NCBI GenBank assembly: GCA_026125625.1
Contig: JAHCKU010000001.1
Location: 1 to 28,506, forward strand
Reading direction: 5' to 3'
DNA: 28,506 nt
Source: Burkholderiales bacterium
GTDB lineage: Bacteria > Pseudomonadota > Gammaproteobacteria > Burkholderiales > SHXO01
In this document: positions 6,904 to 8,262 of the stretch, piece after piece
How positions within the stretch are numbered: the first letter of the stretch is position 1
How the letters are laid out: each line of letters opens with the position of its first letter
Program-made: the position numbers and the translations under genes
Notes under the pieces: model-generated
Database searches by the model: none
What the model was told of the DNA's origin: nothing
What the model saw: the letters and a program-made list of their open reading frames with translations, nothing else

Positions 6904-7015
6904 CTCCCCTCCTTTTCAAGGAGGGTGTACCCCTACATAAATCGCCGTGAGGCGGCGGAATGGTTAGCTTCTACCCCACACCACCCCGGCGCTTCGCGCC
7001 ACCCCGCCTCTTGAG
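6904..7015. repeat. REP-like multi-hairpin module, copy 1 (left part; interrupted by IS110 and completed at 8153-8170)
   Basis: CCCCTCCTT-TTC-AAGGAGGG, GCCG-TGAG-GCGGC, CCACACCACCCC, then CCCCGCCTCTTG|AG; same module order as the copies at 8263 and 8390. Confidence 0.85.
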
Positions 7016-7024
7016 CAACCGTGT

Positions 7025-7972
7025 TCAAGTGTTGCGAAGAGTTGGACTCCATGGGGTATTGGTTCGGGCCATGGCATTGAGGATGGTGACGATTTTACGC
7101 ATGCAGGCCACCAGCGCGACCTTATGGGGCTTTCCTCGCCCGATAAGCCGCTGGTAGAAGCCCTTGATCACAGGATTGAAGCGAATGGCGCTCAGGGCGG
7201 CCATGTAGAGCATGCAACGCACTGGAGCGCGCCCACCCCAGATGCTGCGCCTACCGCGAAGCGTGCCGCTGTCGCGGTTGAACGGGGCCACGCCCACCAG
7301 CGCGCTAATCTTGCGCCCATCCAGGCGCCCCAGCTCGGGCAGCATCACCATGAGCGTAGCGCAGCTGAGCGGACCAATGCCCTTGAAGCTTTGGTAGAGC
7401 GCGGCTTTGGCTTGCCACGCCGGCGAGCTACGCAGCCGCCTGGTGATATCGATGTTGAGCTGCCCGATCGCTTCATCGAGCCAAGCAATGTGCGCCTTGA
7501 TTTGCTTGCGCAGGCCGCCTTGGCTTAAGGCCAACCGATTCGACTCCTGTACGCGCATGCTAACCAGCTGTGCCCTGCGCGCCAGCAGCCCTTGCAGCTC
7601 GCGGCTTTGCTCATCGGGCAGGCGCGTGAGCTGGGGATCGATTGCACGCCCAAATTCGGCCAGCACCTGCGCATCGATCCGATCACTCTTCGCCCAGCGA
7701 CCCGTGGCGCGGGCAAAATCACGCACCTGGCGTGGATTGACCACCGCCACGGGCAGCCCCGCGGCGATCATCGCGCTGGCCGCCACGGTCTCGTAGCCCC
7801 CGCTGGCCTCCATCACCACAAGCGCGGCCTCTGCCGCGTGCAAGCGCTCGATCAGGGCTTCGATCGCTTGGGGATCGTTTGGACATTGTTCGGGCACTTC
7901 GCCCAGCCCCGCAATATCCAATAGCGCTTTGGAGACATCCACACCGATTACCCTTGTGCCTATCTGCTTCAT
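7025..7972 (-). CDS. IS110 family transposase/recombinase (DEDD RuvC-like domain plus C-terminal Tnp domain), 315 aa, intact
   Basis: IGVDVSK (D), VMEASGGY (E), AKSDRIDA (D,D), GIGP, NRDSG (catalytic Ser), ACMRK. ATG at 7972 with GGAGG RBS. Confidence 0.96.
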
Positions 7973-7984
7973 CGCCGCCCTCCG

Positions 7985-8120
7985 TTTCCCAACCTTGCGA
8001 CTATGCGAGCTCGGGCTCACGCAACCGTTCGGGATTGTCGAAGAGATCCGCTCGAGCGAGGCAGGCTCAGCAACGGGCTTACATACCCTAGAGGCGGGAC
8101 GCTCTACCCGAGCGGCGTTA
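7985..8120 (-). ncRNA. Predicted IS110 bridge RNA (target-binding loop about 8048-8115, donor-binding loop about 7987-8034); transcript ends approximate
   Basis: Guides CCCGCCTCT (8090-8098) and TGAG (8066-8069) match the target. Guides ACGGTTGC (8021-8028) and CAAG (7994-7997) match the donor junction. Enclosing stems CCGCTCGGG/CTCGAGCGG and TCCCGA/TTGGGA. Confidence 0.85.
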
Positions 8121-8262
8121 CCATCTTCAGCATACCTCTTGGCCGACATACAAGAGGCGGGGAAGAAACTCGGCACATCGCAATCGTCTTCCCCTCCTTC
8201 TGCGAAGAGCGGAAGAACGTCTTCTGCGAAAGAGTGGAAGAACGTCGGTGTACCGCAATCGT

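What the first reader, a model, noticed from the sequence alone, without database searches (positions are those of the whole stretch)
7002..8163. IS110 inserted exactly at the tip of a REP hairpin, with variant and orientation choice explained by its guides
Seen: removing the IS restores CCCCGCCTCT-TG-AGAGGCGGGG. The two neighbouring uninterrupted modules read CCCCTCCTCT-TG-AGAGGAGGGG, one mismatch to the 9-nt left guide CCCGCCTCT, and are empty. The palindrome offers the left-guide match on both strands, but only the minus strand continues CT-CA as the right guide TGAG requires, and that is the observed orientation. Established: IS621 and ISPpu10 target REP sequences. Inference: this element is programmed to a sub-variant of a different repeat family, which gives it a multi-copy intergenic safe harbour.
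Basis: partly seen in the sequence, partly recalled or inferred. Interest (0 to 1): 0.7.

Follow-up and report, generated by a model that had tools for sequence, protein, structure and literature searches.

The report
Guide-RNA jumping gene in repeat hairpin
This is an intact IS110-family jumping gene whose own bridge (guide) RNA spells out the 11-base site at the tip of a repeated hairpin where it sits; it is a clear but ordinary example of a mechanism described in 2024.

Summary
A 1139-bp IS110-family element (minus strand, window 7014-8152) splits a REP-like hairpin at its tip, with the CT core present at both junctions. Its 5' non-coding end folds, with covariation across 12 relatives, into the two-loop bridge RNA known from IS621. 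The left target guide CCCGCCUCU equals the left flank plus core. The right guide UGAG pairs with core plus CA. The donor guides match the element's own ends.

- Seven metagenome contigs carry the same IS, 100% identical over 1137 nt, with four distinct left flanks. All read ...CCCGCCTCT | IS | CTCA in one orientation relative to the repeat unit.
- One of these flanks is 100% identical to another contig of this same genome.
- The sister IS (83% aa identity) has the guide CCUUCCUCU, and both its insertions lie in the T-variant CCCTCCTCT-CA.
- The genome holds 20 further empty cognate sites, all inside the repeat.

Caveats:
- The empty T-variant neighbours prove nothing, because 20 G-variant sites are empty too.
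- The orientation test is statistically weak.
- Relatives tolerate mismatches at the same guide position.

Verdict: a new member of a known kind. The scan has reported a similar IS110-in-repeat case on other DNA.

The parts
7014..8152 (-). IS110-family insertion sequence, 1139 bp counted with one copy of the CT core. It has no terminal inverted repeats.
   Evidence: The ends TGTATG... and ...CACGGTTG-CT are conserved in all relatives while the flanks differ. Copies 100% identical over 1137 nt occur in L211-L217.
7025..7972 (-). Recombinase (transposase) gene, 315 aa plus stop.
   Evidence: PF01548 at 4e-26 and PF02371 at 1e-15. PDB ISCro4 9t56 at 2e-35 and IS621 8wt6 at 1e-31.
7977..8115 (-). 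[quoted passage not shown]
   Evidence: RNAalifold on 12 relatives gives 41 pairs, 8 of them with compensatory changes.
8090..8098 (-). Left target guide (LTG), CCCGCCUCU.
   Evidence: It lies on the 5' side of the first internal loop and is identical to the left flank plus core at 8161-8153.
8066..8069 (-). Right target guide (RTG), UGAG. The variable loop segment extends to 8074.
   Evidence: It lies on the 3' side of the first internal loop and is the reverse complement of CT-CA. Relatives use 5-9 nt here.
8021..8028 (-). Left donor guide (LDG), ACGGUUGC.
   Evidence: It equals the right-end terminus plus the first core base. It is invariant in the clade, as is the right-end terminus.
7994..8005 (-). 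Right donor guide (RDG), discontinuous: CAUA....CAAG.
   Evidence: It is the reverse complement of the core plus the left-end start (CT-TGTATG) with a 4-nt bulge. CAAG is invariant.
8153..8161 (-). Left target plus core, CCCGCCT-CT. On the plus strand this is the 3' arm of the split hairpin.
   Evidence: The same 9-mer lies at the left junction of all other copies.
7012..7015 (-). Second core copy (7014-7015) plus right target CA (7012-7013). These are the loop bases of the hairpin.
   Evidence: Four contigs of the identical IS end exactly after CTCA.
7002..7013 (.). 5' arm and loop of the interrupted G-variant hairpin.
6904..7015 (+). Interrupted REPIN-like module M1. Its last 18 nt continue at 8153-8170.
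   Evidence: nhmmer hit at 8e-26.
8260..8376 (+). Intact module M2, with the T-variant hairpin at 8349-8370.
8388..8507 (+). Intact module M3, with the T-variant hairpin at 8479-8500.

Best explanation
The element is an active-looking IS110-subgroup insertion sequence that works as a bridge recombinase, as IS621 does.

Its left end encodes a two-loop bridge RNA. The first loop reads the chromosomal target. [quoted passage not shown] The second loop reads the circularised element's own junction. LDG ACGGUUGC pairs with the right-end terminus, and RDG CAUA..CAAG pairs with the left-end start. Recombination at the shared CT core places the IS between the two arms of the terminal hairpin of a REP-like unit.

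The two loop bases CA are asymmetric. They fix the strand used, and so fix the orientation relative to the repeat unit. The G at guide position 4 fits the G sub-variant of the hairpin and gives a G-A mismatch on the T sub-variant. The repeat supplies at least 20 further sites of this kind in the genome.

Shown here: the anatomy, the conserved RNA structure, guide-to-flank covariation in the clade, four independent insertions of the identical IS at the same 11-bp site, and the sister IS with a matching guide change in the T-variant.

For: - Domains and homology to the solved bridge recombinases.
- CT core at both junctions, and clade-wide conserved ends.
- Consensus two-loop structure with 8 compensatory pairs.
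- The published pairing rules applied give 9/9 for the LTG, 4/4 for the RTG and 8/8 for the LDG.
- In 16 related ISs, cognate guide/flank pairing exceeds all 20000 permutations for both LTG and RTG.
- The identical IS has four different left flanks, always ...CCCGCCTCT | IS | CTCA. One flank is 100% identical to contig C254 of this genome.
- Four of seven contigs stop exactly after CTCA, and three stop 14-16 nt upstream of the left junction. That is where copies would diverge if only the guide-specified bases plus the conserved repeat were shared.
- The sister IS has LTG CCUUCCUCU, and both its insertions are in CCCTCCT-CT-CA.
- All 20 genomic CCCGCCTCTCA sites lie in the repeat unit in one orientation.
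- Multi-copy relatives P0005 and P0013 each sit at one motif with 6-8 different distal flanks.
Against: - There is no expression or activity data.
- The single-sequence fold is no better than shuffles (z = +0.96), so the structure rests on the alignment.
- Only 4 nt of the RTG loop pair here, against 7-9 nt in most relatives.
- With 20 G sites and 12 T sites, four of four in G has a chance probability of 0.15. Together with the sister's two T hits it is 0.02, which assumes similar site frequencies in the sister's host.
- The short metagenome contigs may be chimeric between copies on the right side.
Confidence: 0.85

Rival explanations
1. Guide-directed insertion is real, but the choice of G over T sub-variant is not made by the guide. 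The IS would also use T-variant hairpins, and the G-only record reflects site abundance and small numbers.
For: G sites outnumber T sites 20 to 12, so four of four has p = 0.15. Relatives L014 and L187 sit at sites mismatched at the same LTG position. The P0030 element uses two left contexts that differ at distal LT positions.
Against: The sister IS differs at exactly this guide position and is found only in the T-variant, two of two. In three samples the shared left flank of all copies runs through the G. [quoted passage not shown] Here the RTG contributes only 2 non-core bases, so the LTG must carry the specificity.
Confidence: 0.15
2. The hairpin or cruciform structure of the repeat is the primary signal, recognised by the protein, and the guide match is secondary.
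For: Every element of the clade sits in or beside a palindromic repeat. The ISPpu10 preprint reports that a target hairpin raises efficiency from 24% to 56% (10.64898/2026.03.19.712850).
Against: Relatives insert at different registers of the same hairpin (tip versus base of the 5' arm) and in both orientations, each time as their guides predict. L099 targets a non-hairpin tandem repeat. For ISPpu10 itself, sequence complementarity was the primary determinant.
Confidence: 0.05
3. The flanking arms are not a split host repeat. They are terminal inverted repeats that belong to the element.
For: The IS is bracketed by perfect 10-bp inverted sequences.
Against: The same hairpin occurs intact and empty about 20 times. 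Relatives with the same conserved termini have different flanks. The wider module aligns across the insertion.
Confidence: 0.01

Closest known systems
IS621 of Escherichia coli (IS110 subgroup bridge recombinase; Durrant et al. 2024, PMC11208160; Hiraizumi et al. 2024, PMC11208158)
   Same: - DEDD plus Tnp domain recombinase.
- Bridge RNA in the left end with a target loop and a donor loop.
- 9-nt LTG and 4-nt RTG, giving an 11-bp target of 7 + CT + 2.
- CT core.
- Natural targets are REP elements.
- One wobble between guide and natural target, as seen here in the sister IS.
   Different: - Only distant protein similarity (1e-31).
- A different repeat family in a different host.
- IS621 inserts at the 3' base of the REP hairpin, so the hairpin stays whole in the left flank. 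This element cuts at the loop and separates the two arms.
- The second core base is not covaried by the left guides in this clade.
ISPpu10 and ISPpu9 of Pseudomonas putida KT2440 (IS110 family, REP-targeting; preprint 10.64898/2026.03.19.712850; PMC12288879)
   Same: Bridge-RNA IS110 elements confined to copies of one intergenic palindromic repeat, described as a safe zone.
   Different: For ISPpu10 the left target is one arm of a stem-loop lying entirely in the left flank, and that hairpin boosts the reaction. Here the complementary arm lies on the other side of the crossover point.
ISCro4 (PDB 9t56)
   Same: Best solved-structure match, 2e-35 over residues 7-312. The D, E, D..D and SG motif positions align.
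   Different: I did not compare its target or its RNA.
IS1397 / ISKpn1 (IS3 family) inserting in loops of enterobacterial palindromic units (recalled from the literature, not checked here)
   Same: Insertion at the loop of a REP-type palindrome.
   Different: An unrelated DDE transposase with no guide RNA.
REP / REPIN repeats
   Same: Short GC-rich palindromic units, many copies, often as inverted doublets and tandem arrays between genes.
   Different: No RAYT (PF01797) gene was found in this 78%-complete genome. The repeat family was not identified with a named one.

Membership tests
IS110 family, IS110 subgroup (bridge recombinase) | N-terminal DEDD RuvC-like domain and C-terminal Tnp domain | tested here: met
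   PF01548 at 92 bits and PF02371 at 58 bits, both above cut-off. Aligns over nearly its full length (residues 7-312 of 315) with ISCro4 and IS621.
IS110 family, IS110 subgroup (bridge recombinase) | No terminal inverted repeats; a 2-bp core present at both junctions | tested here: met
   CT lies at 8154-8153 and 7015-7014 on the minus strand. The termini TGTATG and CGGTTG are unrelated to each other.
IS110 family, IS110 subgroup (bridge recombinase) | Long non-coding left end upstream of the gene and a very short right end (the IS1111 subgroup has the RNA downstream) | tested here: met
   180 nt lie before the ATG and 9 nt after the stop codon.
IS110 family, IS110 subgroup (bridge recombinase) | RNA with two internal loops closed by conserved stems | tested here: met
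   RNAalifold gives 41 pairs, 8 compensatory. No Rfam family matched.
IS110 family, IS110 subgroup (bridge recombinase) | The first loop pairs with the target flanks and the second loop with the element ends, with covariation | tested here: met
   LTG 9/9, RTG 4/4, LDG 8/8. Permutation test gives 0 of 20000 for both LTG and RTG.
IS110 family, IS110 subgroup (bridge recombinase) | The RNA is expressed and needed for recombination | not testable with these tools
   The runs found hold only DNA contigs.
REP / REPIN repeat | Short palindromic unit present in many copies outside genes | tested here: met
   58 module hits in the genome and 34 matches to the relaxed hairpin pattern. In the window the array lies between two genes. 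Intergenic status of the other copies was not checked.
REP / REPIN repeat | Inverted doublets of the unit | tested here: met
   M2 and M3 each consist of a forward and an inverted unit.
REP / REPIN repeat | Cognate RAYT transposase in the genome | tested here: not met
   No PF01797 match, but the genome is only 78% complete.

The most novel reading that the evidence does not exclude
A single clade of bridge-RNA IS110 elements has radiated over one REPIN-like repeat family by rewriting its guides. Members use the hairpin tip or the base of the 5' arm, and either orientation. The two closest sisters split the G and T sub-variants of the same 11-bp site between them. On this reading, selfish elements partition a repeat 'habitat' by one-base guide changes. 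Tip targeting, where the left and right target arms are mutually complementary, goes together with a minimal 4-nt right guide.
Probability: 0.4. Interest if true: 0.5.

Novelty: new member of a known kind. Interest (0 to 1): 0.38.

Why it matters
This is a clean natural example in which the target code of a bridge recombinase can be read off the sequence and checked against several independent insertions. A sister element differs by the very guide base that distinguishes two repeat sub-variants, which gives a ready-made pair for testing single-mismatch discrimination and the minimal length of the right guide. The case also shows that one repeat family can host many retargeted relatives. It adds no new mechanism: REP targeting by IS110 elements and guide/target covariation are already published.

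Tried and rejected
- Own genome: BLAST found only one assembled copy of the IS. The MAG holds no contig shorter than 1.5 kb, so other copies could not be listed there.
- Relatives: a DNA search of 60 relatives found no near-identical copy. The best match was 69% identity, in G017.
- Rfam: the only hits were sub-threshold microRNA models landing on the palindromic modules, which I take to be spurious. No bridge RNA family matched.
- Single-sequence folding of the left end was not better than shuffles. I used the alignment structure instead.
- Sequencing runs: four holders were found, all kept as contigs. Laying them gave short low-depth pieces and one repeat-level joint, and no usable junction information.
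- Empty T-variant neighbours as evidence of discrimination: rejected, because 20 cognate G-variant sites are empty too.
- Orientation as a strong test: rejected, because LTG-matching sites in the repeat are CA 20 times, TG 5 times and CG once. Four of four therefore has p = 0.35.
- RAYT search: negative in an incomplete genome.
- Two contigs carrying close relatives (proteins P0004 and P0124) returned no DNA because the sample files were too large.

Full report
**What is there.** Between a gene ending at 8522 and a gene starting at 6891, both on the minus strand, lies an array of three GC-rich palindromic modules. The first module is interrupted. CCCCGCCTCT-TG-AG runs to 7015, an unrelated 1137-bp body follows, and AGAGGCGGGG resumes at 8153. 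The body carries a 315-aa gene on the minus strand (7972-7025) with the two IS110 domains PF01548 and PF02371. It is clearly homologous to the bridge recombinases ISCro4 (2e-35) and IS621 (1e-31), whose structures are solved. In the element's orientation the junctions read CCCCGCCT-CT | TGTATG... and ...CACGGTTG-CT | CAAGAGGCGGGG. A CT core therefore sits at both ends, and deleting the body plus one CT restores the 22-nt hairpin. That hairpin also exists intact and empty elsewhere in the genome.

**Boundaries and RNA.** I collected relatives from genomes and metagenomes. All share the termini TGTATG... and ...CACGGTTG-CT, followed by flanks that differ. This fixes the ends independently of the palindrome. 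An alignment of the 180-nt left ends of 12 elements gives a consensus fold of two stem-enclosed internal loops, with 41 pairs of which 8 show compensatory changes. This is the architecture published for IS621. The single sequence alone does not fold better than shuffles.

[quoted passage not shown] The second loop does the same for the donor (PMC11208160).
- LTG (8098-8090) is CCCGCCUCU, identical to the left flank plus core.
- RTG (8069-8066) is UGAG, the complement of CT-CA.
- LDG (8028-8021) is ACGGUUGC, equal to the right-end terminus plus C.
- RDG is CAUA..CAAG, the complement of CT-TGTATG with a bulge.

Across 16 related elements, cognate guide/flank pairing averages 7.25 of 8 for the LTG against 5.8 for non-cognate pairs. 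For the RTG it averages 7.5 contiguous bases against 4.4. No permutation out of 20000 reached the observed sums. The ninth LTG base, opposite the second core base, does not covary in the clade. And this element uses only 4 RTG bases where most relatives use 7-9.

**The prediction tested.** The genome is a 78%-complete MAG of 598 contigs with one assembled copy of the IS. The 90% protein cluster has a second member seen on seven metagenome contigs. Their IS bodies are 100% identical to the window's over 1137 nt.

Together with the window there are four different left flanks. Each ends ...TTCCCCGCCTCT at the junction, and every right flank begins CTCA. The 253-nt left flank of L211 is 100% identical over its first 239 nt to the end of contig C254 of this genome, so the same organism carries the IS at a second locus.

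Four contigs end exactly after CTCA, and three end 14-16 nt upstream of the junction. This is what assembly graphs produce when several copies share only the guide-specified bases plus the conserved part of the repeat. No copy was seen in the T-variant, in a CT-TG site or outside the repeat.

**The sister element.** The closest relative (83% aa, 81% nt; the tree places the two as a pair) has LTG CCUUCCUCU and an RTG ending UGAG. Its two known insertions (L174, L218) are both in CCCTCCT-CT-CA, the T-variant at the same position and orientation. Its guide pairs with the T-variant through one U-G wobble, as IS621's guide does with its natural target. It would mismatch the G-variant. Conversely, the window's guide gives a G-A mismatch on the T-variant.

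**Limits.**
- The genome has 20 CCCGCCTCTCA sites, all in the repeat unit in one orientation and all empty, and 12 CCCTCCTCTCA sites. The two empty T-variant neighbours therefore say nothing.
- Four of four in G has p = 0.15 by abundance alone, or 0.02 with the sister's two T hits.
- Most G-variant hairpins have asymmetric loops and present the LTG match on one strand only, so the orientation result has p = 0.35 and is merely consistent.
- Relatives L014 and L187 sit at sites mismatched at LTG position 4, and the P0030 element uses two left contexts. Mismatch tolerance cannot be excluded, though those elements have longer right guides.

**The repeat.** Each module is an inverted doublet of a roughly 47-nt unit with two hairpins, which makes it REPIN-like. 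There are 58 module hits in the genome. Both the G and T hairpin variants occur in 7-8 of 24 same-genus genomes searched and in none of 16 genomes from other families of the order. No RAYT gene was found.

Other members of the IS clade use the same hairpin at another register, the base of the 5' arm at ...CCC-CT-CCTC..., and in either orientation, each in line with its guides. P0005 and P0013 do so with 6-8 different distal flanks.

**Comparison and verdict.** The element works like IS621 and passes every sequence-level membership test for the IS110 subgroup. Expression and activity are untested. REP targeting by IS110 elements and guide/target covariation are published (PMC11208160; the ISPpu10 preprint). 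An earlier report of this scan describes a similar case on other DNA.

The differences are modest:
- It uses another repeat family.
- The crossover lies at the hairpin loop, so the two arms are separated rather than the hairpin staying whole in the left flank.
- The right guide is minimal.
- A sister element is retargeted by one informative base.

Noticed in passing
window 8260-8376 and 8388-8507: Each module is an inverted doublet of a two-hairpin unit of about 47 nt, which makes it REPIN-like. Between modules there is a conserved linker (GAAGACG.TTGCGATG...) that is also seen next to other insertion sites.
   Followed up: partly
window 7016-7030 joined to 8152-8118 (circle junction): Joining the right end to the left end creates TTGCTT across the junction, a 17-nt spacer, then TATGCT, just upstream of the first RNA stem. 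This looks like a junction-dependent promoter. The spacing is kept in most relatives but not all: L094, L095, L203 and L207 have longer spacers.
   Followed up: partly
alignment A1, last base of LTG and of LDG (window 8090 and 8020): The guide base opposite the second core nucleotide varies freely (T, C, G or A) while the core stays CT, so the left guides effectively read 8 bases in this clade.
   Followed up: partly
L187-L192 (protein P0030): One IS shows two left and two right flank types, which fit insertion in both orientations relative to the repeat unit. One of the left contexts mismatches the LTG at positions 2-4. Short contigs may be chimeric.
   Followed up: partly
L099; L101, L011, L108, L002, L015: More distant relatives with the same termini target other repeats. 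L099 sits in a tandem GCGTCTCAGGTAC-type array. The others sit in CTCTCCC...GGGAGAG hairpins.
   Followed up: no
L002 and L015 (same-genus genome G017): In these two loci (the contig ranges of L002 and L015 coincide, so they may be one record fetched twice) the left end upstream of the donor loop is replaced by unrelated sequence, so the target loop is missing. This is probably a truncated or interrupted element.
   Followed up: no
window 8185-8250: Two degenerate direct repeats (CTTCTGCGAA.GAG.GGAAGAACGT) lie between the interrupted module and the next one.
   Followed up: no
window 8388-8506: Rfam plant and animal microRNA models give sub-threshold hits on both strands of the palindromic module. 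I take these for false positives caused by the long hairpin.
   Followed up: yes
window 7158-7635: 151-nt contigs identical to parts of the IS occur in runs from two other studies, one a landfill metagenome and one unlabelled. Their flanks are not known.
   Followed up: no
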